A DNA stretch of 64,000 nt from Lentisphaeria bacterium (GTDB lineage Bacteria; Verrucomicrobiota; Lentisphaeria; Victivallales; UBA1829): contig JAGCNI010000009.1 of the NCBI GenBank assembly GCA_017646015.1, forward strand, positions 10,535-74,534, in the 5' to 3' direction. This document shows, piece by piece, positions 748 to 42,690 of this stretch. Made by a program: the position numbers and the translations under genes. Position 1 is the stretch's first letter; each line of letters starts with the position of its first letter. Under the pieces are notes generated by a model that was not told the DNA's origin, made no database searches, and saw only the letters and a program-made list of their open reading frames with translations.

Positions 748-774
748 GGGATTTTTCAGCAGAAAATACCATAT

Positions 775-819
775 TCAGACGGCGGACTCTCCGGAAACCG
801 CCGTCTGAGATTTTTATTT
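775..819 (+). terminator. Rho-independent terminator after dnaN
   Basis: Perfect 11 bp stem tcagacggcgg (775-785) / ccgccgtctga (798-808) with a 12 nt loop, followed by gatttttattt. Confidence 0.7.
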
Positions 820-828
820 GCAGAGAAT

Positions 829-1908: not shown

Positions 1909-1968
1909 TTTGATGTTTCTGTACTTGCAGGTTATATTAATGTACCAACAGAATGGAGAAAAAATATT

Positions 1969-10957: not shown

Positions 10958-10978
10958 ATTCCGAACTCCTGCTGCATT

Positions 10979-11779: not shown

Positions 11780-11856
11780 AAATTCATATCCTTGTTCAAT
11801 ATTGTTGTTGATCTTCTTGATTCAGGAATATACACGGTATAAAAGCGTTTCGCAAA

Positions 11857-14406: not shown

Positions 14407-15604
14407 GATCGGTTTGACAGGTCAAAAGAAGCGGTTTGATTTCGCCTGTTTTTCTGGTTTCCTGCGGTAAACAGAATACAAGTTCTTCATCATCAATTAT
14501 ATAAGGAAAACAATCTTTCGGAGCGTGGATCCATTGCAGAACGATCTGTTGATCTTCCAGCAGAGAGAGCATCTGACGGAGTTTGACGGAGTCCGTCATT
14601 CCCAGAAAACAGACCACTGTGCCGGGGGATAAGGTTTCCAGAATCTCTCCGATCAAAGTTTCCACCTGCCCTTTTGACGGAACGATTTCCGTCAGAATTT
14701 CCTGTATTTTTGTGCGTATCCCTGCCGCATCTCCGCTGGTTTGAAAGATTTCTCCGTCATGACGGGTGATAAAAGTCAGGTGACAATACCGTGACGAAAG
14801 ATATTCCGTCACAGAGGCGGCAAGCGTGATGAGTTTTTCAAAATTGTTTTCGACCGGATCATTGCCCACTGCGGCAAGCGTGGTATCCAGGATCAATACG
14901 ATCTTATCCACTGCCGCCGCTTCAAACTCCCGCACCATCAACTGGTTTTTGGAGGCACTCAACCGCCAATGCACAAAACGCATCTCATCTCCGGCACGGT
15001 ACGGACGGATTCCGAAAAAGTCATTGCCCTGTCCCACATGTCCCAGAGATCTGCCTTCCCTGTTGACAGAATGACCGCTGGTGCAGGCGTATGGAAAAGA
15101 GGAAAGCAGAACTGTTTTCGGCACGATGCTGATCTCTCCGGGACATTTGAAGACTTTGACAGTCTTGAAGATGCCGCACGGATCCCCGCCGGAAATCCGG
15201 ATCTTCCGCAAACAGAAATGTCCTCTGCGGCAACTGACCGTTTCCCGCTGTAAGGTGACAGATCCTTTCGGCGGCAGAGAGGGAATCTCCCACGCCGTCA
15301 CTTTTTCCGTCACAAAGGGAATTTGTTCCGTCAGAATCAAAGATTGACGAAACCATGGCAGGTGATTGGTGATAACGAGCGGCAGAACAACTTTTTCCAT
15401 AGATTTTCCATCCGGCATATTTTCGCGGCGGAGTGAAATTCCGGCAGTGGAAAAGAAAGACATCAGGAAACTGGAAATGGTGACAGCACAGAAAACAGAT
15501 GCAGTCAGAGCCGTGATCAATCCCACATTCATCAGAGCCACTCCAACAGAAACGGCAGTAATGATCAGGAAAAGAAGCCCTCCGGGAGTCGGACGGGGAA
15601 ACAT
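14372..15604 (-). CDS. DUF58 domain protein (MoxR partner)
   Basis: Two N-terminal TMs and the DUF58 signature FFGIRPYRAGDEMRFVHWRLSASKNQLMVREFE. It shares base 15604 with the upstream MoxR gene. Confidence 0.75.
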   Translation of the reverse strand: MFPRPTPGGLLFLIITAVSVGVALMNVGLITALTASVFCAVTISSFLMSFFSTAGISLRRENMPDGKSMEKVVLPLVITNHLPWFRQSLILTEQIPFVTEKVTAWEIPSLPPKGSVTLQRETVSCRRGHFCLRKIRISGGDPCGIFKTVKVFKCPGEISIVPKTVLLSSFPYACTSGHSVNREGRSLGHVGQGNDFFGIRPYRAGDEMRFVHWRLSASKNQLMVREFEAAAVDKIVLILDTTLAAVGNDPVENNFEKLITLAASVTEYLSSRYCHLTFITRHDGEIFQTSGDAAGIRTKIQEILTEIVPSKGQVETLIGEILETLSPGTVVCFLGMTDSVKLRQMLSLLEDQQIVLQWIHAPKDCFPYIIDDEELVFCLPQETRKTGEIKPLLLTCQTDLEGIFNDEEAV

Positions 15605-16932
15605 CAGACAGGATCCTCGTTTTTCAGTTTGATGGAGTTGACAATGGTATCAAGGACCTGTTCCACACTTTTCCATTCTGTCCGGCTGCGGAGCTTCAGA
15701 CGCAAACGGTGTGCGAGGACAAGGTTCAGCATTTCTCTGACATCTTTTGGGGTGACATAGTCTCTGCCGTTGTAGGCGGCAAGGCTCTGGCAGCTGCGCA
15801 TGACAGCCAGCGAAGCACGCGGGCTGCAACCATTGACCAGAGCGGGATGTTCCCGTGTGGCATTTGCGATCCGGACAATATAATCTTTGATCTGCGGGGA
15901 AACTTTGACTTTACGGATCAGTGCCTGACAATATACGACGTCATTGCTCTTGATGACGTAGGAGATACTGTTCAGCGGATGGGATGCGAGCTGAGAATCC
16001 AAAATTTCCAATTCTGCCTGTGGACTCGGATAACCGATATTCAGACACATTGTGAAACGGTCAAGCTGAGGTTCCGGCAGCGGATAAGTGCCATGATAAT
16101 CTTCCGGGTTCTGGGTCGCTATCACAAAAAACGGTTTCGGCAGAACATGCGCCTTTCCGTCAATTGTGACGGAAGATTCCGACATACATTCCAGAAGACT
16201 TGATTGAGTTCGCGGAGTGGTCCGGTTGATTTCATCTGCCAGAATCACATTCCCGAAAATCGGACCCGGCAGAAAACGGAAAGTTCCCGTCATTTCATCG
16301 TATATATTGGTTCCAGTGATATCTGACGGAAGCATATCGGGAGTAAATTGGATCCGGCGGTAGCGGGATTGGATCGACTTTGCCAGTGTTTGTGCCAGCA
16401 GACTTTTTCCGACACCGGGTGCATCTTCCAACAGGAGATGACCATCTGCCAGCAGGCAGACGATCAGGTTTCGGATCACATTCGGATTTCCCTTGAAAAC
16501 AGTGGCAATATTGCTTTCCAGCTGCCGGATGACCTGACGGAGCATCTCAAAATTCAGATTGTCTTCTGAAAAATTTCCCCAACTGTTGCCGGATTGACTG
16601 GTTTCAACAGTACCGGGATTGTTATATACCATCATGACTCCGCCAATCTGAATAATATCCTGATGTTTAAGGAGTTGTGAAACAACAGGCTGGGAATTGA
16701 CAAAGGTCCCGTTTGCACTGCTCAGATCCTTGATGATGAAACCGTCCCGCTCCCGGCTGAACATGGCATGACGGCGGGATACATTCCGGTCTGCAATCGA
16801 GATCTCACATTCCGGCTCCCGCCCCATCACAGCAGTATTGCAGTCCAATTCAAATTCTCTGCTTTGCCCGTATCCTTCCTGAATGACAAGGAATGGATTT
16901 TCATGTTTCTGGTTTATTTTTGTTTCCCCCAT
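15604..16932 (-). CDS. FHA domain fused to a MoxR-family AAA+ ATPase
   Basis: N-terminal canonical FHA (VMGREPECEISIADRNVSRRHAMF...IKDLSSANGTFVNSQP...DIIQIGG). MoxR core LLEDAPGVGKS (Walker A), ILADEINRTTPRTQSSLLE (Walker B), ATQNPEDYHGTYPLPEPQLDRF. Confidence 0.85.
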   Translation of the reverse strand: MGETKINQKHENPFLVIQEGYGQSREFELDCNTAVMGREPECEISIADRNVSRRHAMFSRERDGFIIKDLSSANGTFVNSQPVVSQLLKHQDIIQIGGVMMVYNNPGTVETSQSGNSWGNFSEDNLNFEMLRQVIRQLESNIATVFKGNPNVIRNLIVCLLADGHLLLEDAPGVGKSLLAQTLAKSIQSRYRRIQFTPDMLPSDITGTNIYDEMTGTFRFLPGPIFGNVILADEINRTTPRTQSSLLECMSESSVTIDGKAHVLPKPFFVIATQNPEDYHGTYPLPEPQLDRFTMCLNIGYPSPQAELEILDSQLASHPLNSISYVIKSNDVVYCQALIRKVKVSPQIKDYIVRIANATREHPALVNGCSPRASLAVMRSCQSLAAYNGRDYVTPKDVREMLNLVLAHRLRLKLRSRTEWKSVEQVLDTIVNSIKLKNEDPV

Positions 16933-16965
16933 GACAGTATTGCTTTCTCTTCAAGGTGGTTGATC

Positions 16966-18078
16966 TTACTGTTTTTTTTCCTCTTCGCCTTCCTCATCTT
17001 CCTCATCTTCCATTTCGATGCCGTGTGCTTCAAACATGTTACGCAGGTCTTTACGGTCGATGGCACGGAACATGGCTTCTTCGGGAGCGACGATTCCTTT
17101 TTCGACGACTTCAAAGAGACTTGTATTGAGAGTACGCATCCCCTGTTTTGTTCCGGTCTGCAGCACGGATTCGATCTGGAAGATTTTATTTTCACGGATC
17201 AAGTTGGAAACAGCGGAGTTGACGACGAGGATTTCGAGAGCGGCGATACGGCCTTTTCCGATACGTTTGCAGAGAGTCTGAGCGACGACACCTTTGAGAG
17301 AACCGGCGAGCATGGCACGGATCTGAGCCTGACGGTTTGCGGGGAACTGCTGAATGATACGGTCCACGGTACTGGCGGCAGTGGTGGTATGCAGAGTTCC
17401 GAAAACCAGGTGTCCGGTTTCTGCTGTTTCCAGAGCGATTTCCACCGTTTCCAAGTCACGCATTTCCCCGACCAGCACGATATCCGGGTCTTCACGGAGG
17501 GCTGCACGCAGAGCATTTGCAAAGCTCATGGTATGGCGTCCGACTTCGCGGTGGTTGATAAGGCATTTATTACTTTTATGCACGAATTCGACAGGGTCTT
17601 CGATGGTGATGATATGGTCGGTTCGGATACGGTTGATATAGTCGACCATGGCGGCGAGGGTTGTTGATTTCCCGGAACCGGTAGGTCCTGTAACCAGCAC
17701 CAGACCTTTGTTCAAGGTACACAGGTTGGCGACGACCGGTGGCAGGTTGAGCTGTTCAAATGTCAGAATATTTGCCGGAATGAGTCGGGCGACGATACCC
17801 ACACCGTTCAAGTCGCGGAAGATATTGACACGGAAACGGTCTCCTGTCGGCAGAGAGTATGCCAAGTCGGTATCATTGATTTGTTTGAACTGATCGATAT
17901 TACGCTGGGGCATGATTTCAAATGCCATTGCTTCGATTTCTTCACTGGTCAACGGTTCTGATTCGGTAAAGACCATTTCACCGTCAATACGGTATGCAAC
18001 CGGCATGTTACTGCTTATGTGCGTATCGGAAGCACGCTGTTCCAACATGAAATACAAATATACATCGATATCCGGCAT
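16966..18078 (-). CDS. pilT: Type IV pilus retraction ATPase PilT family, with an acidic C-terminal tail
   Basis: Walker A GPTGSGKST, ITIEDPVEF, LVGEMRDLET, His box GHLVFGTLHT, and the AIRNLIRE-like SNLIRENK. The tail is EMEDEEDEEGEEEKKQ. Confidence 0.9.
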   Translation of the reverse strand: MPDIDVYLYFMLEQRASDTHISSNMPVAYRIDGEMVFTESEPLTSEEIEAMAFEIMPQRNIDQFKQINDTDLAYSLPTGDRFRVNIFRDLNGVGIVARLIPANILTFEQLNLPPVVANLCTLNKGLVLVTGPTGSGKSTTLAAMVDYINRIRTDHIITIEDPVEFVHKSNKCLINHREVGRHTMSFANALRAALREDPDIVLVGEMRDLETVEIALETAETGHLVFGTLHTTTAASTVDRIIQQFPANRQAQIRAMLAGSLKGVVAQTLCKRIGKGRIAALEILVVNSAVSNLIRENKIFQIESVLQTGTKQGMRTLNTSLFEVVEKGIVAPEEAMFRAIDRKDLRNMFEAHGIEMEDEEDEEGEEEKKQ

Positions 18079-20952: not shown

Positions 20953-21867
20953 ATGTGGTTGGGTTTTCTTTTAGTCAGTCTTGCGGGAATCTGCTGGGTT
21001 GGAACGGGGATCGTAGTCAGTACGTCAGCCAAACGCGGGGTCAACTATAATATTGTGCAGTTGATTTCAGGTTTGATTCTGATTCCGGTTGCTTTTGTCT
21101 GGCTGTTTCTGCAAGGTGGCTTGAAATCTTCCCCGAAGACCTGTCTGCTTGTATTTGCCGCCTGTTTTGCGGGGGGAGTTTGTAACTATTTCAACTATCT
21201 TCTTGCGGAAGCGGCGATGAAACGCGGACCGAACGGATTGGTTTGGGGGATCATGCAATCGGGGCTGATCGGAACGTTTCTGATGGGAGTTTTCGGGTTT
21301 GGTGAAAAAGCTTCTTGTATCGGTTGGTTCAGTCTGTTTCTGACGGTATCAGGTTTGATTCTTTCCGGCTTGAAAAAGAAAAAAGGAGTTGAAACCGGAG
21401 AGAAACCGCAGGGATTTGCCTGGTTGTTTTTATCTTTGGCGGCGATGTTTTTTGTGGCTTTGACCCATTGTTTTATTGCCTTGCCGTCCTTTCTTCCGGG
21501 AGGTTCGGATACGGGTGGCGCTTTCCGTCAGATAGCGATCAGTTCGGGAACGATTGCAGCTTTTGTGGTGGTAACGCTGCCTGGACTTCTCAAGCGGCAT
21601 GAGTTTTGTGTTACAAGATATACCTGTTTTTTTTCAGGGATCGTTGCATTGATCACTGTATTTGCCAATTTGATCTTTTTCTTTCACGGGATCGATCTTC
21701 TTGCGTCGGGTGGATGCGGCGGTCTGGGGTATCCGGTTGCGATCGGAGTATGTCTGATCGGTTTCTCTGTTTACAGTTTGTGTATTCTGCGTGAAAAACT
21801 TGCAAAAGCAGAGCTCATTGGTTTGTTGTCGATCATACTGGGGATCATCGGGATGTCTATGAGATAA
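20953..21867 (+). CDS. Ten-TM DMT-superfamily-like membrane transporter, paralog 1 of 3, substrate unknown
   Basis: 304 aa and highly hydrophobic throughout, with a two-halves architecture. Conserved blocks GG(V/I)(C/G)NYF..LL.EAAMKRGPNGLVWGI and GCGGLGYPVAIG..L(I/V)GFSVYSLCILREKL. RBS aaaaggag lies 8 nt upstream. Confidence 0.65.
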   Translation: MWLGFLLVSLAGICWVGTGIVVSTSAKRGVNYNIVQLISGLILIPVAFVWLFLQGGLKSSPKTCLLVFAACFAGGVCNYFNYLLAEAAMKRGPNGLVWGIMQSGLIGTFLMGVFGFGEKASCIGWFSLFLTVSGLILSGLKKKKGVETGEKPQGFAWLFLSLAAMFFVALTHCFIALPSFLPGGSDTGGAFRQIAISSGTIAAFVVVTLPGLLKRHEFCVTRYTCFFSGIVALITVFANLIFFFHGIDLLASGGCGGLGYPVAIGVCLIGFSVYSLCILREKLAKAELIGLLSIILGIIGMSMR

Positions 21868-21921
21868 GAGTGTGCGGGTGTGGGGAAACTGTTGTTTTTT
21901 TTCCGGAATTCTTCTTTGGAA

Positions 21922-21951
21922 TTGGAAAAAAGAGCAATAATATGCTATAAT
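21922..21951 (+). promoter_or_regulatory. Extended -10 promoter of transporter paralog 2
   Basis: TTGGAA (21922-21927), an 18 nt spacer, then TGcTATAAT (TATAAT 21946-21951). Same block as before paralog 1. Confidence 0.5.
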
Positions 21952-22015
21952 ATATGGATATTTATTTTTTTGATGGAAATAATGTTTTCTTTTTAAAACA
22001 GGAGGGAATTTTTTT

Positions 22016-22930
22016 ATGTGGTTGGGTTTTCTTTTAGTCAGTCTTGCGGGGATATGCTGGATCGGGACCGGGATCGTGGTCAGTATGTGTGCCAAGCGCG
22101 GGATCAACTATACTATCGTGCAAATGTTGTCAAACTTGATTCTGGTTCCTGTCTGCTTGATTTTTGCTTTTTTTCAGGGGGGCTTCAACTGTGACAGAGA
22201 GATTTATCTGACTGTTCTGGGATTCTGTTTCATTGGCGGTATCGGGAATTATTTTACATTTTTATTGACAGAAGCAGCGATGAAGCGCGGTCCCAATGGG
22301 CTTGTCTGGGGGATCATGCAGGCTGGTATGATTGGAACATTTTTGATGGGAGTTTTCTGTTTTGGCGAAAAAGCGTCATGGTGCAGTTGGCTTTTTCTTT
22401 TTATTGTTCTTGCGGGAGTGATTCTTTCCGGATTAAAAAAGGAAAACAAACCTGAAGATGCTGTAAAAAGCAGCGGTTTAGCATGGTTATGGTTTTCCAT
22501 TGCGGCAATGGTTTGTGTAGCTTTTACGCAGTGTACGGTTGTTTTTCCCTCTTTTATGAAAGGGGGAACGGATGCGGGGAGTGCGATTCGTTTATTGGGT
22601 CTCAGTGCCGGAGCAGTTCTTGCTTTTTCTGCGACGACACTTCCGGCATTGCTGAAAAAACATGAATTTTATATTGTCAAAGGGACTTGGACAATGACAA
22701 TTCTTACGGTTTTGATTTCGATTTTTGCAAGTATATTCTTTTTTGTTTACGGTGTTGACCGTCTTGCGGCTGCTGGTTGCGGTGGGTTGGGATATCCGGT
22801 TGCGATCGGAGTATGTCTGGTTGGTTTTTCCGTTTACAGTTTGTGTATTCTGCGTGAAAAGCTGTCAAAGATCGAGATCATTGGTCTGGCGGCGGTTACG
22901 CTGGGGATCATCGGGATGTCTCTGAAATAA
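22016..22930 (+). CDS. Ten-TM DMT-superfamily-like membrane transporter, paralog 2 of 3
   Basis: 304 aa and colinear with paralogs 1 and 3. RBS caggaggg upstream. Confidence 0.65.
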   Translation: MWLGFLLVSLAGICWIGTGIVVSMCAKRGINYTIVQMLSNLILVPVCLIFAFFQGGFNCDREIYLTVLGFCFIGGIGNYFTFLLTEAAMKRGPNGLVWGIMQAGMIGTFLMGVFCFGEKASWCSWLFLFIVLAGVILSGLKKENKPEDAVKSSGLAWLWFSIAAMVCVAFTQCTVVFPSFMKGGTDAGSAIRLLGLSAGAVLAFSATTLPALLKKHEFYIVKGTWTMTILTVLISIFASIFFFVYGVDRLAAAGCGGLGYPVAIGVCLVGFSVYSLCILREKLSKIEIIGLAAVTLGIIGMSLK

Positions 22931-22983
22931 GAGAGTGCATGTGTGTTTGTTGTTATTTTTCCGTAAATCTTCTTTTTGGGGAA

Positions 22984-23012
22984 CTGGAAAAATGTCAATG
23001 GGATGCTATAAT
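22984..23012 (+). promoter_or_regulatory. Extended -10 promoter of transporter paralog 3
   Basis: CTGGAA (22984-22989), a 17 nt spacer, then TGcTATAAT (TATAAT 23007-23012). A diverged copy of the block before paralogs 1 and 2. Confidence 0.4.
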
Positions 23013-23072
23013 ATGCGGATATTTTTTTCTGTAACGGACTGAAATATTTTTGTGTAAGGGTTTTAGAAAGAA

Positions 23073-23987
23073 ATGTGGCTTGGTTTTCTTTTAATTTGTT
23101 TGGCGGGGATCTGCTGGATCGGCTCCGGGATCGTGGTCAGTGTGTGTGCCAAACGCGGAGTCAGTTATAATATCGTGCAGTTGGTTTCGTGTTCGATACT
23201 GGTTCCGGTTTCCTTTGCCATCATGTATTTTCTGGACGGCTTCAGATGTTCTCTCCGAATCTATCTGATCGTTATGATTATCTGTTTTATTGGCGGTATC
23301 GGGAACTATTTTACATTTCTGCTGACAGAAGCAGCGATGAAACGCGGTCCCAACGGATTGGTTTGGGGGATTGTGCAATCGGGAATGATCGGAACATTTC
23401 TGATGGGCGTTTTCATGTTTAACGAAAAAGCTTCTTTTATCAGTTGGTGCAGTTTGCTTTTGACTGTATCCGGCGTGATTCTTTCTGGTTTGAAAAATAA
23501 AAAAGGAGCAGATGTGGGACAGAACCCGCATGGATTTGCCTGGTTGTTTTTTTCCTTGGCGGGGATGTTTTTTCTGGCTATCACCCAGTGTTTGGTTGGG
23601 CTTCCCTCTTTTATTGAGGGGGCGTCGGAGGCTGGGAGTGCGTTTCGTGTGATGACGGTCAGTATGGGAACGATCATTGCTTTTTGTATTGTAACGCTGC
23701 CGGGACTTCTGAAACGTCATGAGTTCAAAGTTACGAAACAGACCTGGTACATATCGGTAATTACGGCAGGGATTGCTGTTTTGAGCAGTATTCTTTTGTT
23801 TATTCGCGGAGTGGATCTTCTTGCGGCTGCCGGTTGCGGGGGGCTGGGGTATCCGGTGGCGATCGGGATCAGTCTGATCGGTTTTTCCGTTTACAGTTTG
23901 TGTATTCTGCGTGAAAAGCTGTCAAAGATCGAGATCATCGGTCTGGCGGCGGTTACGCTGGGGATCATCGGGATGTCTCTGAGATAA
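23073..23987 (+). CDS. Ten-TM DMT-superfamily-like membrane transporter, paralog 3 of 3
   Basis: 304 aa and colinear with paralogs 1 and 2. The last 108 nt differ from paralog 2 at only 2 positions. Confidence 0.65.
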   Translation: MWLGFLLICLAGICWIGSGIVVSVCAKRGVSYNIVQLVSCSILVPVSFAIMYFLDGFRCSLRIYLIVMIICFIGGIGNYFTFLLTEAAMKRGPNGLVWGIVQSGMIGTFLMGVFMFNEKASFISWCSLLLTVSGVILSGLKNKKGADVGQNPHGFAWLFFSLAGMFFLAITQCLVGLPSFIEGASEAGSAFRVMTVSMGTIIAFCIVTLPGLLKRHEFKVTKQTWYISVITAGIAVLSSILLFIRGVDLLAAAGCGGLGYPVAIGISLIGFSVYSLCILREKLSKIEIIGLAAVTLGIIGMSLR

Positions 23988-24019
23988 ACTATTGATAAAA
24001 ATACAATAATAAAGGTGTT

Positions 24020-24979
24020 ATGATGTCAGAAAGAAAAAAATGGAAAAAGCCCATGTGGCTCAAAAAAGTGGAATATGCGATTCTGATGCTGGGAGTGAAG
24101 ATCATGCAGTCATTGGAAGTCAAGACCTGCTATGCTCTTGCCAATAAGATCGGTTTATTGGTATATTACTGTGATTTCAAGCATCGCAACCGTGCGATTT
24201 CGCATATTCTTCACAGTGGGATCCGGACAGATCTTGCGGGGGCGAAGGAACTGGCAAAAAAGAATTTCCAGCATATTCTGAAAGTTTTTGTGGATGTGGT
24301 GACAGCATCCCGTTTGGTGACACGGGAAAATTTCCGTGATTATTATGAGTTGGACATGGAAGCGGATCCGGAATGGCTTGCTTTTTCCACATCGGAAAAA
24401 AATGAAAATGTGATTCTTGCAACAGGTCATCTCGGGAACTGGGAACTTGCCGGTTCAGCGTATTCACTTCTTTCCGGAATTCCGCTGGTTTCAATCATGC
24501 GTCCGCTGGAAAATGAGTTGATCGGAAACTTTTTTTATTCCCGTCGTGCGGTCTTTGATCACACGACATTTTCCAAAGAGAAAGGGGTTCGCCCGCTTCT
24601 GACTGCGTTGCTGCATGGTGAATCCATTGCGATCGTGGCAGACCAGCATGCTGTCCGGCAGGAGGGGGTTGAAATTGAATTCTGCGGACATCCTGCCCGT
24701 GCTCACATGACACCTGCCTTGCTGAATCTCAAGACAAAAGTCAAATTGATTTGTTGGGTTGCGATCCGGAAAGAAGATGATTTCAAATTTAAGATTACAG
24801 GATGCGGTCCTGTTCATTATACTCCGACCGGCGACAAGGAAAAGGATATTCAAGCTCTTGCTCAGCTTTATTCAAATCAGATTGAAGAGTGTTTGCGGAA
24901 ATATCCTGAACAGTGGCTTTGGCCGCATCGTCGCTGGCTGGATTGCAACCGGAAACATAACAAGGAGAAAAACTCATGA
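24020..24979 (+). CDS. Lipid A biosynthesis (LpxL/HtrB-family) lysophospholipid acyltransferase
   Basis: N-terminal TM, catalytic H(X)4E-type block ATGHLGNWELAG, then ADQHA and WLWPHRRW blocks typical of the family. Confidence 0.7.
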   Translation: MMSERKKWKKPMWLKKVEYAILMLGVKIMQSLEVKTCYALANKIGLLVYYCDFKHRNRAISHILHSGIRTDLAGAKELAKKNFQHILKVFVDVVTASRLVTRENFRDYYELDMEADPEWLAFSTSEKNENVILATGHLGNWELAGSAYSLLSGIPLVSIMRPLENELIGNFFYSRRAVFDHTTFSKEKGVRPLLTALLHGESIAIVADQHAVRQEGVEIEFCGHPARAHMTPALLNLKTKVKLICWVAIRKEDDFKFKITGCGPVHYTPTGDKEKDIQALAQLYSNQIEECLRKYPEQWLWPHRRWLDCNRKHNKEKNS

Positions 24980-25683
24980 AAAAATTACTTTCCGAATTTG
25001 ATTCCCGCAGAATCCTCGTGGCACCCTCTCTGCTTGCCGCTGATTTTGCTCATCTCGCAGACGAAGTCAAACGTATTGAAGAAGCCGGATCCGATCTTCT
25101 GCATCTGGACGTGATGGATGGTCATTTTGTGCCCAATCTGACTATGGGACCGCCGTTGATCGCTTCGCTCCGCAAAAATTCCTCACTGCCTTTTGATACT
25201 CATCTGATGTTGAGTCATCCGGGCAAATACATCAAGCCTTTTGTGGATGCCGGATCTGACCATATCACTTTCCATATCGAATCGGAAGATGATCCGCTGG
25301 AAGTCATTGCAGCCATCCGTGAAAGCGGTGTTTCTGTCGGTGTTTCTGTGAAACCGAAAACTCCGGCAAGTGCTATTGCCCACCTGATGGATAAAATCGA
25401 CCTGGTTCTGGTTATGTCTGTTGAACCCGGTTTCGGCGGACAGTCTTTCATGAGTGAAGTTGTACCCAAGATCGCGGAACTGCGTGCTATGGCAAATCAG
25501 ATCAATCCCCGTATTCATATTGAAGTTGATGGCGGGATCGACGGTGAAACTGCGAAGGTCGTTGTGGAAGCCGGAGCGAATATGCTGGTTGCGGGCACAT
25601 CTGTTTTCCGCGCCAAAGACGGAGCTGAAAACGCTGTTGCACGTCTGCATGAAACCCAGAAACTCCTGCCGCCGCAGAAATAA
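24976..25683 (+). CDS. rpe: Ribulose-phosphate 3-epimerase
   Basis: PSLLAADF, LHLDVMDGHFVPN, MSVEPGFGGQ, EVDGGI. ATGA overlap with the preceding gene. Confidence 0.9.
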   Translation: MKKLLSEFDSRRILVAPSLLAADFAHLADEVKRIEEAGSDLLHLDVMDGHFVPNLTMGPPLIASLRKNSSLPFDTHLMLSHPGKYIKPFVDAGSDHITFHIESEDDPLEVIAAIRESGVSVGVSVKPKTPASAIAHLMDKIDLVLVMSVEPGFGGQSFMSEVVPKIAELRAMANQINPRIHIEVDGGIDGETAKVVVEAGANMLVAGTSVFRAKDGAENAVARLHETQKLLPPQK

Positions 25684-25686
25684 AAA

Positions 25687-27405
25687 ATGAACAGGATCCT
25701 GTTTTTTACAGATTTTCTCACTGAAAAATTCGGTACTGTTCTTCACCGGATCCCGTTTGATCTGGGCTTATCCTGCCCCAACCGTGTGAACGGGGCAGGC
25801 GGTTGTGCTTTCTGTGCTGCTGACGGTGCTCTGGCACGTCATCTTTCATCCGGCATGGAATTGGCAAAACAGGCAGAAGCGGGGCGGAATTATGTTCGTG
25901 AAAGATATGGTTCTGATGGACCATATCTTGCTTATTTTCAAGCATTTACAAATACATTTGCAGAGGTCTCTGTATTGCGGCGTCTTTATTCGGAGGCTCT
26001 CGCCACCGGAGATTACAAAGCAGTGGTGATCGCCACCCGTCCGGATTGTCTTTCTGATGAATGTATTGATTATCTTGCGGAGCTTTCGCAGCAATATGAA
26101 CTCTGGGTCGAGCTTGGAGTGCAGACTGCTGTTGACCGGACATTGGAGTTGATCCGGCGCGGTCATGACTTCGCCTGTGTCCGTGATGCGGTTACGAGAC
26201 TTCATGCCAGAAAGATCCATTGTGCTGCGCACGTGATCCTCGGTTTGCCCGGAGAGACCCGGGAGGATCATCTTTATACCGCCCGCCAGATAGCAGCTCT
26301 TCCCTTTGAAGCAGTGAAACTGCATCATCTTCTGATTCTGAAAGGGACTGCGATGGCATCCATGCTGCATGAAAAGAAAGTGACTCCGCTCAATGAATAT
26401 GAATATGCGGAAGAACTCTGTTGTTTTCTGCGGCAGCTGCCGGAGGGTATGGCGGTCATGCGTATTTCTGCGGATGCCCCGCAGGAGGAGATCATTGCTC
26501 CCCGCTGGTGGATGAAAAAAGGACAATTCCGGGAGATGTTTCTGGAGTTGTTCAAGAAAGGCGGCGAGGGGGATTCCCCATTTGAGTTTGCCTCGAAAAC
26601 AGAGGATGGCTCTTATACCTTTTATCATCCGGTATATCGTCAGCATTTTCATTCGACAGCCGGAGCCAGGAGTGAATCTTTTGTGAAATACATTGATCCC
26701 TGCCGGATCCGGGAACGTCTGGAGAACGGGGAGGAGCTGACAGTTCTTGATGTTGGTTTCGGAATGGGATTCAATGTATCGGCTCTTTTCCGGACAGCGC
26801 AGGCTGCCGGTTGCGGAAGATTGAAAGTGATCTCTCTTGAATTTGATCCTGCGGTTTTGAAAGCGGCATCCATGCTGCCGGAACATCCTGATCCGGAAAT
26901 CGTTCAGGCTTTGCGTCGATCGCAGCAATACAGCAGCGGGAACTTTTCGGTGGAATTGCTTTATGGTGATGCCCGTCAGATCCTTCCTGCGGACACTCTT
27001 TTTGATGCTGTTTTTCTGGATGGATTTTCACCGGATTCCAATCCTGAATTATGGACTTTTGAGTTTATCGGCGAATTGAAAAAACATTTGAATCCGGAAA
27101 CAGGTATGCTTGCGACGTATTCATCTGCCTATCCATTGTACGGAGCCTTGTTGTCTCATGGATTCAAAGTCTATACCTCGGAACCTTTCGGGCGCAAACG
27201 AGGCGGGACGCTGGCAGCACTTCAGGAACAGGATCATGTTACACCTTTACCGGAAAAAGATTTTCTGATTGCGACTCATTCCACAGCCGGGACACCTTAT
27301 TCTGATCCGGACTTGAAAGGGACCCGCAAAGAGATTCTGAAGCGTCACTCGGAAACGGTTTCGGAACGCAGAAAACAAGGTGTTCCGAAATGGTATCGCC
27401 AGTGA
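25687..27405 (+). CDS. Fusion protein: TIGR01212-family radical SAM domain (YhcC/YtqA-like) plus MnmC-type SAM methyltransferase domain (DUF752)
   Basis: N-terminal half: FDLGLSCPNRVNGAGGCAFC, ATRPDC, ELGVQT, ILGLPGET. C-terminal half: DGSYTFYHPVYRQHFHSTAGARSES, LDVGFGMGFN, LLYGDARQ, FDAVFLDGFSPDSNPELWTFEF, LATYSSA. It is one uninterrupted 572-codon frame. Confidence 0.8.
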   Translation: MNRILFFTDFLTEKFGTVLHRIPFDLGLSCPNRVNGAGGCAFCAADGALARHLSSGMELAKQAEAGRNYVRERYGSDGPYLAYFQAFTNTFAEVSVLRRLYSEALATGDYKAVVIATRPDCLSDECIDYLAELSQQYELWVELGVQTAVDRTLELIRRGHDFACVRDAVTRLHARKIHCAAHVILGLPGETREDHLYTARQIAALPFEAVKLHHLLILKGTAMASMLHEKKVTPLNEYEYAEELCCFLRQLPEGMAVMRISADAPQEEIIAPRWWMKKGQFREMFLELFKKGGEGDSPFEFASKTEDGSYTFYHPVYRQHFHSTAGARSESFVKYIDPCRIRERLENGEELTVLDVGFGMGFNVSALFRTAQAAGCGRLKVISLEFDPAVLKAASMLPEHPDPEIVQALRRSQQYSSGNFSVELLYGDARQILPADTLFDAVFLDGFSPDSNPELWTFEFIGELKKHLNPETGMLATYSSAYPLYGALLSHGFKVYTSEPFGRKRGGTLAALQEQDHVTPLPEKDFLIATHSTAGTPYSDPDLKGTRKEILKRHSETVSERRKQGVPKWYRQ

Positions 27406-27461
27406 CATTTTCAAGTTCAAATCACAAAATCATGCCATAAAACTCTTGATCCGATTTTCCT

Positions 27462-27498
27462 GATATTGATTCTTTTTTACTATTATAAGATATTGATT
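27462..27498 (+). repeat. Direct repeat GATATTGATT x2 in the promoter region of the HTH-GH78-like gene
   Basis: gatattgatt occurs at 27462-27471 and 27489-27498. The second copy overlaps a candidate -35 (TTGATT 27493-27498, 17 nt spacer, TATAGT 27516-27521). Confidence 0.6.
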
Positions 27499-27578
27499 TT
27501 TTGATTTTTCTGCATTATAGTTACAGTATTTTATAATCCTGAAAAACTCCATTCAAATTTTACCAAAAGAGGATATAT

Positions 27579-29867
27579 ATGATTTCGGAAATGGAAACAT
27601 TTGGAACCCGGCTTCGCTGTCTCCGTATTGAAAAAGAAAAACAGGATCCTTCTTTTTCTCTGTCCGGTTTTGCTGCGATGCTGAATATCAGCCGGAGCAG
27701 CCTGCGGAAAATAGAAGAAGATGGTCTGATTCCCTGTGCTGATATTATCAGAAAAACAGCTGCGGCATTGGATATATCTCTTGAAGAATTTTCAGCCCTT
27801 GCTGAAAAAGACTCTTTTGCAGTTGCAGTTCCTGTCTGGCCTCGTGGACGTCGTGAAAAAATGAATGATTTTGTTCTTTTTTCGGCTTGTTTTCCGGCGA
27901 AAAACCAAGAGAAGATCCAACTCAGAATTACCGGTTCGACCTATTACCGGGTGAAACTGAATGGTAAATTTGTATCTCACGGACCGATGCGCGGACCGAA
28001 AGGATATTTCCGCATCTCAGAACTGTCTCTTTCTGTGCAGGATGGGGAAAACAAACTTGAAATCGAAGTTTCCGGAGCCAATGTCAACAGTTTTGATTTT
28101 ATGGATCAGCCCAGTTTTCTGCAGGCGGAAGTACGCTCCGGCGATCACGTTCTTCTTGCGACCGGACGGGACTTCAGGGCATTTGATCTTTCCAATGAGC
28201 GAATTCAGAAAGTGACCCGGTACAGTTATCAGAGACTCTTTTTTGAAGCCTATCGGGTGACTCCGGAACGTAAAAATCTGAATCAACTGGAGCTGGAGAT
28301 CTGTCCGCAGGTGAATTATCTTCCCGCCCGGATGCCGGAACCGGAATATAAAATCGATAACAGTTTCCGTCCTGTAAAGACATTGCGCCGAACCTATGCC
28401 GATGAGCCGAAAGTGGCAAGAGACCGTTCTGTTACGATGGCGGGACAAAAAGAATACAAAGGTTTTCCCCAAGAGGAACTTGAGGTCAATGCGTATGTGG
28501 AAATTCCACGTTACCGGCGTGATGATAACGGCATGATCATTTCAACTCTCTACCGGGGGAAGATCGACAACACCGGCTTTGTGAAAATTCATCTTGTCTG
28601 TCATCGTCCCGGACGTCTGGTTGTGCTTTATGATGAGTTGGAATCTCCCGAAGGAGGGGTCAACGCGATGCGTCTTTATATGACGGGCGGTATTTTCTTT
28701 GATTTACAGGAACCCGGCGAATATGAGTTGGAAGCGATGGAACCGGGCACCTTGAAATTTGCCGAAGTTTTCATGCATGGCGGGGAAGCGGAGATACTTT
28801 CTTTTTCGATCCGGGAATATAAAGGTTCCCTCAAACTGCGTCCGCCCTCAGACAAACTTGACCTGGATTTGAAAAAGATTTACCGTGCGGGCTTGTACAG
28901 TTTTGCTGCCAATGCCGTAGATCTGTTTACAGATTGTCCATCACGGGAGCGGGCAGGCTGGCTTGCTGATTCTTTTTTCATTGCCAGGGCATCGTTTTTT
29001 CTGACGGGATCAACGCTTCCGGAAAAATGTTTTCTGGAAAATTTTCTTCTTGCTTCGTCCTGTCCCGGGATCCCGGATGCTGTTTTTCCGATGCTATATC
29101 CCGGAGATCATACGACCGGTGAATTTATTCCCAACTGGGGTATGTGGCTTCTGCTGCAGTTGAATGAATATGCTCAACGTGGCGGAGATGCCGGTATGAT
29201 AGAAGATTTCCGTGGAAAAGTTTTTGCTTTTATCGACTATATTGATTCATTTCTCAATGCAGACGGGCTGCTTGAAAAACTGCCGAGCTGGGTTTTTGTT
29301 GAGTGGAGTAAAGCCAATCAGTTTGTACAGGATGTCAATTATCCGATCAACATGCTCTATGCCCGTACGCTGGAAGCGATGGCTGATCTTTATCATGAAC
29401 CTGCATGGAAATCACGGGCTCAGAGAATGCGTCAGACGATTCGGGAGCAGTCTTTTGACGGTCAATTTTTCCGGGATCACGCTGTGCGAGAGGAAGATGG
29501 AACTTTGAGAGTTCTTTCTGATTATACGGAAGTGTGCCAGTACTATGCGTTTTATTTCGGTACGGTGACACCGGAAACTCATCCTGCATTGTGGCGTTGT
29601 CTTGTCCGGGATTTCGGATCGCATCGTGAGGTCGGGAAGAAATGGAAAAAAGTTCATCCTGCCAATATGTTTATGGGGACAATCATGCGGCTTGAGCTGC
29701 TTATTCAAACCGGGCATAAGGGGATGGCATTGAACCATATCAAAGAGTGCTGTCTCAAGATGGTGAAACTGACGGGAACTTTGTGGGAACATAAGGAGCC
29801 CTATGCCAGTTGTTGTCATGGATTTCCGAGTTTTATCTGTTTGCTGATTCAGAAAATCAAAGGATAA
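27579..29867 (+). CDS. XRE-family HTH domain fused in frame to an alpha-L-rhamnosidase-like (GH78-like) body
   Basis: Residues ~8-70 are FGTRLRCLRIEKEK...LSGFAAMLNISRSSLRKIEEDGLIPCADIIRKTAAALDISLEEF (XRE HTH). From ~95 comes the rhamnosidase N-domain pattern IQLRITGSTYYRVKLNGKFVSHGP...GENKLEIEV. Later comes the six-hairpin block FTDCPSRERAGWLADSF. RBS agagga lies upstream of ATG 27579. Confidence 0.7.
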   Translation: MISEMETFGTRLRCLRIEKEKQDPSFSLSGFAAMLNISRSSLRKIEEDGLIPCADIIRKTAAALDISLEEFSALAEKDSFAVAVPVWPRGRREKMNDFVLFSACFPAKNQEKIQLRITGSTYYRVKLNGKFVSHGPMRGPKGYFRISELSLSVQDGENKLEIEVSGANVNSFDFMDQPSFLQAEVRSGDHVLLATGRDFRAFDLSNERIQKVTRYSYQRLFFEAYRVTPERKNLNQLELEICPQVNYLPARMPEPEYKIDNSFRPVKTLRRTYADEPKVARDRSVTMAGQKEYKGFPQEELEVNAYVEIPRYRRDDNGMIISTLYRGKIDNTGFVKIHLVCHRPGRLVVLYDELESPEGGVNAMRLYMTGGIFFDLQEPGEYELEAMEPGTLKFAEVFMHGGEAEILSFSIREYKGSLKLRPPSDKLDLDLKKIYRAGLYSFAANAVDLFTDCPSRERAGWLADSFFIARASFFLTGSTLPEKCFLENFLLASSCPGIPDAVFPMLYPGDHTTGEFIPNWGMWLLLQLNEYAQRGGDAGMIEDFRGKVFAFIDYIDSFLNADGLLEKLPSWVFVEWSKANQFVQDVNYPINMLYARTLEAMADLYHEPAWKSRAQRMRQTIREQSFDGQFFRDHAVREEDGTLRVLSDYTEVCQYYAFYFGTVTPETHPALWRCLVRDFGSHREVGKKWKKVHPANMFMGTIMRLELLIQTGHKGMALNHIKECCLKMVKLTGTLWEHKEPYASCCHGFPSFICLLIQKIKG

Positions 29868-38515: not shown

Positions 38516-39562
38516 TTACGGGATCCGCAGAAGAACAGTTTTTTCCAGAACGAATCCGCAGAGCAGGAGTCCGGCTGCCAGATAGCAGAAGAACGGATAC
38601 AATTCTTTCCAGTTGATCAGGATATTCTGTTCAACAGAAGTTTTTTCCAGTTTGTCGATCTGTTCCATCGCCTGCTGCATGGAATCGCCGTCTTCCGCTT
38701 TGTAATAGACTCCACCTGTGACGGATGCGATTTCCTGCAGGAGTTTTTCATCGAATTCATTTTGTACGGGCATAAATCCGGAACCGAAGAAACTTTCCTG
38801 TTTCATTACGGAATTTCCGGAACCGATCCCGACGGTATAGACTGTGACATTGAATGTATCTGCCAATTTTGCCGCCTGCAGGGGAGTTACTTTTGCATTG
38901 ACATTATTGACGCCATCGGTGAAGAGGACCACGATCCTCCGTTTGGAATCGGAGTCTTTCAGTCTTCTGACAGCACTTGTGATCGGTCCTGCGATCCCTG
39001 TCATGTCTCCGATGACACCGGTTTCGAGCCGGTTCAAATTGGCGAGGAGCCATGGATGGTCAAGAGTTGGCGGACAAACCATGTACGGTTTCGGAGCGAA
39101 AGCCACCAATCCGATCCGGTCATTGGGGCGGGCATTGATAAATTTTGCGATCTCTTCTTTTGCTGTTCCGAGGCGGTCTTTGACTTTGCCTGATTCAAGA
39201 GCGGCGGAGAGTTCATTTTTTGTACGTATCCCGGCGGGGACATCGATCGCGCGCATACTGCCGGAAAGGTCGAGAGCCACGATGATATCGATTCCTTCGG
39301 TACGGCGGCGTATCTGTTCCATTCCCTCCCGCGGAGCTGCAATGGCAATGATCAGCATGATCCCGCCGATGGCATAACAGAGGAAAGGGATCCATTTCCG
39401 GTAAGAACCGCGTCCGCCCGGATTTTTCACGGCAGCTTTCTGAAAGACTTTCAGGCTCGGTATCACCAGAGACGGTACAGGATTGTGCCATGCCCGCCAC
39501 AGGATCAATGCCAGAATGACCAGCAGAAACAACATGTATGGATGTGTCAAAGTATGGATCAT
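38516..39562 (-). CDS. VWA domain membrane protein (BatA-like)
   Basis: Two N-terminal TMs, MIDAS ALDLSGSMRA, VVLFTDGVNN, C-terminal TM. Confidence 0.8.
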   Translation of the reverse strand: MIHTLTHPYMLFLLVILALILWRAWHNPVPSLVIPSLKVFQKAAVKNPGGRGSYRKWIPFLCYAIGGIMLIIAIAAPREGMEQIRRRTEGIDIIVALDLSGSMRAIDVPAGIRTKNELSAALESGKVKDRLGTAKEEIAKFINARPNDRIGLVAFAPKPYMVCPPTLDHPWLLANLNRLETGVIGDMTGIAGPITSAVRRLKDSDSKRRIVVLFTDGVNNVNAKVTPLQAAKLADTFNVTVYTVGIGSGNSVMKQESFFGSGFMPVQNEFDEKLLQEIASVTGGVYYKAEDGDSMQQAMEQIDKLEKTSVEQNILINWKELYPFFCYLAAGLLLCGFVLEKTVLLRIP

Positions 39563-40527
39563 TTTTTATTCTCCTTTCCCTCAACGGGAGTTGTTTCAAT
39601 AATCAGTTCCTCGGCTTTGGTGGCGGCATTTTCAAACAGCATCCTGTCCGCTGAAAGTTTCGCGAATTTGACCATATCAGCGGCATTCAGAAAACTCCGG
39701 AGAAAGTCGAGATTTTTTTCGGAAAGTTCCCCTTTCCCTTTTTCCAGATCCTGCATGAACTCAGCGGTGGTCTGACGCCCCGCCCGGAGATGGAAACGCT
39801 GTTCCATATATTCCCGGACAATATCTGTGAGGCGGGCGATGGAATTTTCCGGCAGGGCATCTCCTGTCCGGACTTTTCCTGTAAGTCTGCGGATCGCTTC
39901 CAGAGCAGTTGTCCACGGCGGCAGGATCTTCTGTTTTGCGTGTTGAAGATGTTTCAGCCAGAGCAATGCTGCGACACAGAGGAGGATCAGGATCGCAAGG
40001 AGCGTGATCACAATGATCTTTGTCCGGTTTCCGGTACTCTTTTCTTCTTCCCATTTTCCTGCCAGAGTCAGTTCTGTTCCTTTGACTTCCAACGGTTGGA
40101 TTTTGAAAGAGGGGATTTGGAAAGAGATATTTCCGCCGTTGCTGAAAGAAACATTTCCTTCCGTATTTTTGATGATTCCCTCCCGGAATCCCTGCATCGG
40201 GATCACTGCATTCCAGAGAGAGCTTCCCCATTCCCATGATTTCCGTTTGAAATACGGTTCCGCAGTCAGTTGAATTCCTTCCGGCGGCTGTATGGTAATG
40301 GATCGCGGATAGACTCCCCATGGCAGGCGGAATTCCATCATGACGTGGAATTTTTTACCGAGGACAAGATTTTCCTGTTCCGGTCCTTGCGGAGCGTTCA
40401 AGAGTTCCGGTTGGATATTTGCATTGGAAACACGGACATATTTGATTCCGATGACAATTCCGGCGGTCAGGAGCATGGCAAACAGCACCAACAAGGTGCG
40501 GAGTATGATTTTTTTCCATTTTTTCAT
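39559..40527 (-). CDS. Membrane protein of Bat-like operon (DUF4381/BatD-like)
   Basis: N-terminal anchor, a beta-rich exported region, a central TM (IIVITLLAILILLCVAALLWL), then a helical cytoplasmic tail. ATGA overlap with the VWA gene. The family assignment is tentative. Confidence 0.45.
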   Translation of the reverse strand: MKKWKKIILRTLLVLFAMLLTAGIVIGIKYVRVSNANIQPELLNAPQGPEQENLVLGKKFHVMMEFRLPWGVYPRSITIQPPEGIQLTAEPYFKRKSWEWGSSLWNAVIPMQGFREGIIKNTEGNVSFSNGGNISFQIPSFKIQPLEVKGTELTLAGKWEEEKSTGNRTKIIVITLLAILILLCVAALLWLKHLQHAKQKILPPWTTALEAIRRLTGKVRTGDALPENSIARLTDIVREYMEQRFHLRAGRQTTAEFMQDLEKGKGELSEKNLDFLRSFLNAADMVKFAKLSADRMLFENAATKAEELIIETTPVEGKENKK

Positions 40528-40547
40528 AGTTGTGATCTCCTGTCGTA

Positions 40548-41429: not shown

Positions 41430-41454
41430 AGTGCCAACCTCCTCTCTGCACCGG

Positions 41455-42477: not shown

Positions 42478-42690
42478 AATAACTCCCCCTCCTTTGACCG
42501 GGTTGATGTGAGCAATATGGTCTGTATCATACAGCCAATTGACCGATTTTTCCAGAGAAAGTTCCATATTTCCCCCGATTTCTTTACCGGATGCGTTAAA
42601 AATTTGAAAAAAAGTTGTATTTCAGACTTTACGAAAAGAGTTTTACGGGTTATCTTACCTGAAAAATTCTGAAACAGAAAGGGAGACAGT

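What the first reader, a model, noticed from the sequence alone, without database searches (positions are those of the whole stretch)
25687..27405. Rosetta-stone fusion of a TIGR01212 radical-SAM protein (YhcC/YtqA family) with an MnmC-type tRNA methyltransferase domain
Seen in sequence: one 572-codon frame. The N-terminal half carries the family-specific cluster motif CPNR-x6-GGCAFC and downstream radical-SAM blocks. The C-terminal half carries the MnmC N-terminal (DUF752) blocks YHS..GA..ES-like, LDVGFGMGFN and F(L)DGF(S)P..NPELW.

Established knowledge: the MnmC methyltransferase domain converts nm5(s2)U34 to mnm5(s2)U34 in tRNA. The TIGR01212 family is poorly characterised.

From memory, and not verifiable here: in Bacillus subtilis the TIGR01212 gene ytqA neighbours ytqB (reported as the MnmM methyltransferase), and ytqA has been implicated in the same xm5U pathway.

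Inference: this covalent fusion independently links the radical-SAM family to mnm5U34 synthesis. It may encode a single-polypeptide alternative to the MnmC(o)+MnmC(m) route.
Basis: partly seen in the sequence, partly recalled or inferred. Interest (0 to 1): 0.62.

Follow-up and report, generated by a model that had tools for sequence, protein, structure and literature searches.

The report
Known MnmL–MnmC2 tRNA-modification fusion enzyme
This gene from a gut Victivallales bacterium fuses a radical-SAM enzyme (MnmL/YtqA) to a tRNA methyltransferase (MnmC2); it probably finishes the mnm5(s2)U wobble modification without oxygen, and the fusion is real but already published, so it is an ordinary member of a known kind.

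Summary
Window 25687..27405 (+) is one intact 572-codon ORF. Residues 7-287 match TIGR01212, now named "tRNA modification radical SAM protein MnmL/YtqA", at 274 bits against a cutoff of 180. Residues about 299-548 are an MnmC2/DUF752 methyltransferase; the best solved relative is Aquifex aeolicus MnmC2 (3VYW, E 7.5e-39).

It is not a frameshift artefact. More than 100 distinct full-length homologues (49-71% identity) and 68 species-representative genomes, nearly all Victivallales/Lentisphaeria, carry the same architecture. Three independent metagenome assemblies read through the junction without an indel.

The catalytic residues are invariant across the family: C30/C40/C43, the GFGxG SAM motif, D445-x-F447 and Y478.

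Jaroch et al. (bioRxiv 10.1101/2023.12.21.572861) used this YtqA/MnmC2 fusion to identify MnmL. They list 3 + 70 examples, including Victivallales bacterium CCUG 44730 and Victivallis vadensis. A 2026 preprint shows in vitro that E. coli YhcC converts cmnm5s2U to nm5s2U.

The fusion protein itself has not been tested biochemically. Verdict: real, correctly read, already known, low interest.

The parts
25687..27405 (+). mnmL-mnmC2 fusion gene, 572 codons plus stop
   Evidence: ORF list. Full-length homologues of 49-71% identity have the same three Pfam domains. No indel in three independent DNA assemblies.
25705..26547 (+). MnmL/YtqA radical-SAM domain (residues 7-287)
   Evidence: TIGR01212 at 274.4 bits against cutoff 180. 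Radical_SAM plus Radical_SAM_C. 38% identity to E. coli YhcC over residues 4-274, E 3e-57. The fold matches Elp3 radical-SAM domains.
25774..25815 (+). [4Fe-4S] cluster-binding motif C30-x9-C40-x2-C43 (CPNRVNGAGGCAFC)
   Evidence: The three cysteines are invariant in the 30-sequence alignment A1 and align with CPNR..GGCTFC of E. coli YhcC.
26548..26580 (+). Inter-domain linker (about residues 288-298)
   Evidence: This is the lowest-confidence stretch of the AF2 model; the 10-residue block 291-300 has pLDDT about 59. It is variable in alignment A1, and P0055 and P0063 carry insertions of about 50-60 aa exactly here.
26581..27330 (+). MnmC2/DUF752-type SAM-dependent methyltransferase domain (residues 299-548)
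   Evidence: phmmer match to 3VYW (A. aeolicus MnmC2), residues 46-293 of the 308-residue chain, E 7.5e-39. Foldseek top hit is 3VYW, TM 0.76 on the target, 34% identity. NF033855 at 111.7 bits. PF05430 at 90 bits.
26746..26775 (+). SAM-binding motif I, LDVGFGMGFN (residues 354-363)
   Evidence: G357, F358, G359, G361 and N363 are invariant in A1. The stretch aligns to ldvgfglgyn of 3VYW.
27019..27054 (+). Motif IV, DGFSP...NPELW (residues 445-456), with catalytic D445 and F447
   Evidence: Aligns to D193-A-F195 of A. aeolicus MnmC2. That Asp corresponds to E. coli D178, whose mutation severely reduces methyltransferase activity (PMC3527978). Invariant in A1.
27331..27402 (+). Basic C-terminal helix and tail (residues 549-572), ending in the conserved G-x-P-K-W-Y
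   Evidence: G565, P567 and W569 are invariant in A1. AF2 predicts a helix at 547-563. [quoted passage not shown]
24976..25683 (+). Upstream rpe (ribulose-phosphate 3-epimerase); context only, probably the same transcription unit
   Evidence: TIGR01163 at 272.8 bits. Its stop codon lies 3 nt before the fusion ATG. The lpxL-like/rpe/fusion gene order is kept in 19-22 of 68 related loci. A metatranscriptome contig spans 25498-25718.

Best explanation
The gene encodes a bifunctional tRNA wobble-uridine modification enzyme, MnmL-MnmC2.

Proposed mechanism:
- MnmEG first makes cmnm5(s2)U34 on tRNAs that read split codon boxes.
- The N-terminal radical-SAM domain binds a [4Fe-4S] cluster through C30/C40/C43 and cleaves SAM reductively. 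It removes the carboxymethyl group without oxygen, giving nm5(s2)U34.
- The C-terminal MnmC2 domain then methylates the free amine with a second SAM to give mnm5(s2)U34.

The polypeptide would therefore replace both halves of canonical MnmC (FAD oxidase MnmC1 plus methyltransferase MnmC2) in an anaerobic gut Victivallales bacterium.

Shown here: domain identities, intact catalytic motifs, conservation of the architecture, and a confident two-domain fold. Inferred from homologues and the literature: the chemistry of each domain. Not shown anywhere: the activity of the fused protein itself.
For: - Domain assignments: TIGR01212 above its curated cutoff and an MnmC2 hit.
- The best solved relative of the C-terminal half is the biochemically characterised A. 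aeolicus MnmC2, by sequence (E 7.5e-39) and by fold.
- The catalytic Asp/Phe of motif IV and Tyr of motif VI (D445, F447, Y478) and the three cluster cysteines are invariant across 30 homologues of 49-70% identity.
- The N-terminal half is 38% identical to E. coli YhcC. YhcC converts cmnm5s2U-tRNA to nm5s2U-tRNA in vitro and is needed anaerobically.
- The AF2 model has pLDDT 90.9 and pTM 0.83.
- The architecture is conserved in more than 100 protein clusters and 68 genomes of Victivallales/Lentisphaeria.
- The literature lists this fusion and predicts the MnmL/MnmC2 combination converts cmnm5s2U onward.
- MnmL-only organisms tend to be anaerobes, and the locus is found in gut and faecal metagenomes.
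Against: - No biochemical or genetic test of any MnmL-MnmC2 fusion exists; Jaroch et al. say the predictions await experimental validation.
- The MnmC2 domain scores below NCBI's trusted cutoff for NF033855 (111.7 against 136).
- mnmE, mnmG and mnmA were not seen in this 64-kb window. Their presence, and the absence of mnmC1 and mnmM, in the source genome is only inferred from a related genome.
Confidence: 0.8

Rival explanations
1. Only the MnmC2 half works in the xm5U pathway. It would methylate nm5(s2)U made directly by MnmEG from ammonium, as in Aquifex aeolicus. The radical-SAM half would perform a different reaction on the same or another RNA substrate.
For: A. aeolicus uses stand-alone MnmC2 with the ammonium route and needs no demodification step. 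The 2023 paper cautioned that not all YhcC/YtqA subgroups need be isofunctional.
Against: The subgroup then thought to be the exception (E. coli YhcC) has since been shown to catalyse the same demodification. The fusion proteins sit in SSN cluster 8, which the authors rate as highly likely to be isofunctional with MnmL. TIGR01212 is scored as an equivalog well above its cutoff.
Confidence: 0.1
2. The C-terminal half is a diverged class I methyltransferase with a substrate other than nm5U34.
For: NF033855 scores below its curated cutoff. Foldseek also lists other Rossmann-fold methyltransferases such as PRMT5.
Against: The PRMT5 hits have TM scores of only about 0.2. 3VYW (TM 0.76) and 2QY6 (TM 0.74) match much better. 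The MnmC2-specific N- and C-terminal modules and the DxF and Tyr residues are conserved. Generic methyltransferase Pfam models reach only E 0.004-0.04, against 1.4e-25 for PF05430.
Confidence: 0.05
3. Two adjacent genes were joined by a sequencing or assembly frameshift, so no fusion protein exists.
For: One low-depth metatranscriptome contig carries an extra A in the A6 run at 26515-26520, just upstream of the linker.
Against: Three independent DNA assemblies from different studies show no indel anywhere in 25687-27405. More than 100 homologue clusters and 68 genomes have the same uninterrupted ~570-aa ORF. Purifying selection is evident across both halves and around the junction.
Confidence: 0.01

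Closest known systems
YtqA(MnmL)/MnmC2 fusion proteins catalogued by Jaroch et al. (bioRxiv 10.1101/2023.12.21.572861), e.g. Victivallales bacterium CCUG 44730 WP_106054069.1 (569 aa), Victivallis vadensis A0A2U1AFG2 (570 aa), Kiritimatiella glycovorans, Sulfurospirillum barnesii
   Same: Same domain order (radical SAM at the N terminus, MnmC2 at the C terminus), same length of about 570 aa, and same phylum and order. The Victivallis vadensis cluster (P0117) is 52% identical over the full length.
   Different: Only the species differs. The nearest species-representative genome is 69% identical and the nearest protein cluster 70-71%. No architectural difference was found.
Bacillus subtilis MnmL (YtqA) with MnmM (YtqB); E. 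coli YhcC
   Same: The radical-SAM domain belongs to the same TIGR01212 family and has the same C-x9-C-x2-C cluster motif. It is 38% identical to E. coli YhcC. The predicted reaction is the same, cmnm5s2U to nm5s2U.
   Different: In Bacillus the methyltransferase partner is the unrelated MnmM, encoded by a neighbouring or fused gene. In E. coli YhcC stands alone and MnmC supplies the methyltransferase. Here the partner is MnmC2, fused covalently.
Aquifex aeolicus stand-alone MnmC2 (DUF752, PDB 3VYW)
   Same: Best sequence match (E 7.5e-39, about 34% identity) and best fold match. It shares the extra N- and C-terminal modules, the DxF motif and the motif VI Tyr.
   Different: The Aquifex protein is monofunctional and relies on the ammonium route of MnmEG. 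Here the domain is fused behind a demodifying radical-SAM enzyme.
Canonical bifunctional MnmC (MnmC2-MnmC1) of E. coli and Yersinia (3PS9, 3AWI, 3SGL)
   Same: Predicted to carry out the same two-step conversion, cmnm5s2U to nm5s2U to mnm5s2U. The methyltransferase domains are homologous (E about 1e-8).
   Different: There is no FAD/DAO oxidase domain. Demodification would be by radical-SAM chemistry, which needs no oxygen. The domain order is reversed, with the methyltransferase C-terminal here and N-terminal in MnmC. A MAG homologue named 'bifunctional protein MnmC' (P0023) is therefore loosely named.

Membership tests
TIGR01212 / MnmL (YtqA/YhcC) radical-SAM tRNA modification enzymes | Family HMM score above the curated cutoff | tested here: met
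   274.4 bits against cutoff 180, residues 7-287 covering model positions 5-287 of 302.
TIGR01212 / MnmL (YtqA/YhcC) radical-SAM tRNA modification enzymes | Three-cysteine [4Fe-4S]/SAM cluster motif (CPNR...GGCxFC) | tested here: met
   C30, C40 and C43 are present and invariant in 30 homologues. They align to the E. coli YhcC motif.
TIGR01212 / MnmL (YtqA/YhcC) radical-SAM tRNA modification enzymes | Radical_SAM core followed by the Radical_SAM_C domain (Elp3-like fold) | tested here: met
   PF04055 at 38-200 and PF16199 at 209-281. Foldseek hits to Elp3 radical-SAM domains at E about 4e-13.
TIGR01212 / MnmL (YtqA/YhcC) radical-SAM tRNA modification enzymes | Linkage to an nm5U methyltransferase (MnmM or MnmC2) by gene clustering or fusion | tested here: met
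   Fused covalently to MnmC2. This is the same arrangement as the SSN cluster 8 proteins of Jaroch et al..
TIGR01212 / MnmL (YtqA/YhcC) radical-SAM tRNA modification enzymes | Catalyses cmnm5s2U34 to nm5s2U34 on tRNA | not testable with these tools
   Shown for E. coli YhcC in vitro and for S. mutans and B. subtilis MnmL genetically, but not for any fusion protein.
MnmC2 / DUF752 (Methyltransf_30) tRNA nm5(s2)U34 methyltransferases | Family HMM above threshold | tested here: inconclusive
   Pfam PF05430 passes (90 bits against 22). NCBIfam NF033855 gives E 4.4e-32 but 111.7 bits, below its trusted cutoff of 136.
MnmC2 / DUF752 (Methyltransf_30) tRNA nm5(s2)U34 methyltransferases | Motif I GxGxG for SAM binding, and the signature DxF in motif IV with the catalytic Asp (E. 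coli D178 / A. aeolicus D193) | tested here: met
   VGFGMG at 356-361 and D445-G-F447 align to the 3VYW residues, are invariant in A1, and have the roles described in PMC3527978.
MnmC2 / DUF752 (Methyltransf_30) tRNA nm5(s2)U34 methyltransferases | Conserved motif VI aromatic residue (Tyr-225 in A. aeolicus) and the extra N- and C-terminal modules around the class I methyltransferase core | tested here: met
   Y478 aligns to Y225 and is invariant. The Foldseek alignment covers 291 columns against the 306-residue 3VYW chain, TM 0.76.
MnmC2 / DUF752 (Methyltransf_30) tRNA nm5(s2)U34 methyltransferases | SAM-dependent methylation of nm5(s2)U34 | not testable with these tools
   Needs an enzyme assay or LC-MS of tRNA nucleosides.
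Canonical bifunctional MnmC (MnmC2-MnmC1) | C-terminal FAD-dependent oxidase (DAO) domain, MnmC1 | tested here: not met
   No DAO or FAD domain in the Pfam or NCBIfam scans. The full-length MnmC models NF002480 and NF002481 match only their N-terminal part, about 220 positions of more than 600. This is not a canonical MnmC.

The most novel reading that the evidence does not exclude
The covalent fusion may do more than co-express two enzymes. It could couple the two steps physically on one bound tRNA, handing nm5(s2)U34 from the radical-SAM site to the MnmC2 site without release. That would give strict anaerobes of the PVC group a complete, oxygen-independent, single-polypeptide route. No MnmL-MnmC2 fusion has been tested biochemically, so both the bifunctionality and any coupling remain open.
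Probability: 0.3. Interest if true: 0.35.

Novelty: already known. Interest (0 to 1): 0.15.

Why it matters
mnm5(s2)U34 tunes the decoding of Lys, Glu, Gln and related split-box codons. How bacteria that lack MnmC finish this modification was an open question until MnmL and MnmM were found. The MnmL-MnmC2 fusion was one of the comparative-genomic clues that solved it.

This locus adds one more uncultured gut Victivallales example. It shows that the architecture is close to universal and under strong purifying selection in that order. It opens no new question. The remaining gap is biochemical proof that the fused enzyme performs both steps, and whether they are coupled.

Tried and rejected
- Frameshift artefact: rejected. 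Conserved full-length homologues and three indel-free independent assemblies rule it out.
- Unrelated class I methyltransferase: rejected on sequence, motifs and fold.
- Pathway partners (mnmE, mnmG, mnmA, mnmC1, mnmM) in the window: none found among the ORFs scanned. The neighbours are housekeeping genes: an lpxL-like acyltransferase, rpe, a rhamnosidase-like protein and a MATE transporter. Gene context therefore adds nothing functional.
- Promoter and terminator scan of 23900-27700: only weak consensus matches, no convincing signals.
- Antisense ORF 25846..26928 (360 aa): no family match; treated as a shadow ORF.
- Whole-genome absence of mnmC1: not testable here, because only 6-kb flanks of related genomes were available. 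I relied on the published table for Victivallales bacterium CCUG 44730.
- Distance between the two active sites in the AF2 model: not measured, because model coordinates are not exposed to the scripting tool.

Full report
**Observation.** Window 25687..27405 on the + strand is one uninterrupted ORF of 572 codons. Its ATG lies 3 nt after the TAA stop of the upstream rpe gene.

- NCBIfam TIGR01212 at residues 7-287, 274.4 bits against a curated cutoff of 180. This model is now titled "tRNA modification radical SAM protein MnmL/YtqA".
- NF033855 tRNA_MNMC2 at residues 313-510, E 4.4e-32 and 111.7 bits. This is below its trusted cutoff of 136.
- Pfam reports Radical_SAM (38-200), Radical_SAM_C (209-281) and Methyltransf_30 (413-512, E 1.4e-25). 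Generic methyltransferase models reach only E 0.004-0.04.

The quoted motifs are all present. The only correction is that the cluster motif reads CPNR-x4-GGCAFC (C30-x9-C40-x2-C43), not x6.

**Is the fusion real?** A protein search returned 2278 hits at E <= 1e-10. Of the best 120 listed, nearly all are full-length proteins of about 570 aa at 49-71% identity. They carry the same three Pfam domains, and the few shorter entries look like fragments. Those that have names come from Lentisphaeria or Victivallis MAGs.

A scan of one genome per species found 68 loci encoding relatives at 41-69% identity, most matched over the full length and a few cut by contig ends. Almost all are labelled Victivallales, Victivallaceae or Lentisphaeria; a few carry Kiritimatiellota or Verrucomicrobiota labels.

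In a 30-sequence alignment both halves are under clear purifying selection. The segment at residues 291-300 is variable, and two homologues carry insertions of about 50-60 residues exactly there. That is how a domain linker behaves.

The locus occurs in gut and faecal metagenomes from several studies. Contigs from three independent DNA runs cover the ORF with no insertion or deletion inside 25687-27405. A frameshift artefact is therefore excluded.

A metatranscriptome run holds contigs across the rpe/fusion boundary (25498-25718) and over both domain-coding halves. This is consistent with expression as part of an lpxL-like/rpe/fusion unit, although DNA carry-over cannot be excluded. That gene order is kept in 19-22 of the 68 related loci.

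**Domain identities.**
- *C-terminal half.* Against all PDB sequences the best match is A. aeolicus MnmC2/DUF752 (3VYW). Query residues 299-548 align to chain residues 46-293 of 308, E 7.5e-39. The E. coli and Yersinia MnmC N-terminal domains follow at about 1e-8.
- *N-terminal half.* It has no solved close relative. Elp3 radical-SAM domains are best, at about 1e-9. It is 38% identical to E. coli YhcC over residues 4-274, E 3e-57.
- *Predicted structure.* An AlphaFold2 model built on the alignment is confident, with pLDDT 90.9 and pTM 0.83; only the linker block dips to about 59. A Foldseek search of the PDB ranks 3VYW first (E 1.5e-21, TM 0.76 on the target, 34% identity). Elp3 radical-SAM domains and the E. 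coli MnmC N-terminal domain 2QY6 (TM 0.74) come next. Unrelated methyltransferases such as PRMT5 align with TM of only about 0.2.
- *Catalytic residues.* The JBC paper on DUF752 (PMC3527978) defines the DxF signature of motif IV. Its Asp-193 corresponds to E. coli D178, whose mutation severely reduces methyltransferase activity. The paper also describes a conserved Tyr-225 in motif VI and C-terminal helices proposed to help bind tRNA. In the window protein these residues are D445-G-F447 and Y478 (alignment), and all are invariant across the family. The same holds for the SAM motif I (G357, F358, G359, G361, N363) and the three cluster cysteines.
- *C-terminal tail.* It ends in a conserved G-x-P-K-W-Y and forms a predicted helix at 547-563.

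**Mechanism.** MnmEG is expected to make cmnm5(s2)U34. The N-terminal MnmL domain would use a [4Fe-4S] cluster and SAM to demodify it to nm5(s2)U34 without oxygen. The C-terminal MnmC2 domain would then methylate it to mnm5(s2)U34.

The chemistry of the first step is shown for homologues. MnmL has been tested genetically in S. mutans and B. subtilis, and E. coli YhcC has been tested in vivo under anaerobiosis and in vitro. The second step is shown for A. aeolicus MnmC2. For the fused protein both steps are inferred.

An oxygen-independent route fits a gut anaerobe. MnmL-only genomes tend to be anaerobes, and MnmC is almost confined to Pseudomonadota.

No mnmE, mnmG, mnmA, mnmC1 or mnmM lies in the 64-kb window. 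In the related genome Victivallales bacterium CCUG 44730, the published tables show MnmA, MnmG and MnmE present and the fusion as the only COG4121 protein.

**Comparison with what is known.** The fusion is already in the literature. Jaroch et al. (bioRxiv 10.1101/2023.12.21.572861) report YtqA/MnmC2 fusions, 3 in COG genomes and 70 more in InterPro, as one of the comparative-genomic clues that identified YtqA as MnmL. They predict that the MnmL/MnmC2 combination can convert cmnm5s2U onward, "awaiting experimental validation".

Their supplementary tables name:
- Sulfurospirillum barnesii (558 aa), Kiritimatiella glycovorans (597 aa) and Victivallales bacterium CCUG 44730 (569 aa).
- Victivallis vadensis (570 aa) and several Lentisphaerae MAGs.
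- These proteins are placed in cluster 8 of their sequence similarity network.

The window protein is thus one more species-level member of an already catalogued architecture in the same order. It is not a canonical MnmC. It has no FAD oxidase domain, and the full-length MnmC HMMs match only their methyltransferase part.

**Verdict.** The one open point is biochemical: no MnmL-MnmC2 fusion has been assayed, so bifunctionality and any coupling between the two active sites remain to be shown.

Noticed in passing
window 20953-23987 (+): Three tandem 304-aa EamA/DMT-family membrane-transporter paralogues (20953-21867, 22016-22930, 23073-23987). The last two share near-identical N- and C-termini. 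The region has the strongest GC skew in the window, 0.28.
   Followed up: partly
window 26515-26520: An A6 run (ATG AAA AAA GG, codons M276-K278) lies just upstream of the domain linker. One low-depth metatranscriptome contig (run X15) carries an extra A here, while three DNA assemblies do not. It is most likely an error, but it would truncate the protein to an MnmL-only product.
   Followed up: partly
window 27579-29867 (+): A 762-aa ORF with a Bac_rhamnosid6H (GH78-like six-hairpin) domain at residues 430-721. By eye, the first ~70 residues look like an XRE-type helix-turn-helix. This is either an unusual regulator-glycosidase fusion or an over-extended start.
   Followed up: no
window 103-3788 and the GC-skew minimum near 12-14 kb: dnaN (cut by the window start), recF, lpxK and rsmG(gidB) lie together, and cumulative GC skew reaches its minimum around 12-14 kb. 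The window may lie near the replication origin. No mnmG(gidA) or mnmE sits next to rsmG here.
   Followed up: no
window 9230-18078 (-): A cluster of Tad/Flp-pilus-type genes (TadA-like ATPase, RcpC/CpaB, a second T2SSE ATPase) is interleaved with a transglutaminase-like protein, DUF58 and an FHA-AAA_3 (MoxR-like) ATPase. A BatA-like VWA cluster lies separately at 38516-42567.
   Followed up: no
L006 (CAYTKK010000127.1): A contig binned as 'uncultured Lachnospiraceae' carries a 60%-identical fusion gene with the same lpxL-like/rpe/fusion order as Victivallales loci. The contig is probably mis-binned.
   Followed up: no
window 25846-26928 (-): A 360-aa antisense ORF lies wholly inside the fusion gene and has no Pfam match. 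It is most likely a shadow ORF.
   Followed up: yes
P0023 (homologue, 66% identity): A Lentisphaerae MAG homologue is named 'tRNA 5-methylaminomethyl-2-thiouridine biosynthesis bifunctional protein MnmC' in NCBI, although it lacks the MnmC1 oxidase domain. Other homologues are named only 'TIGR01212 family radical SAM protein'. Public naming of this fusion is inconsistent.
   Followed up: no
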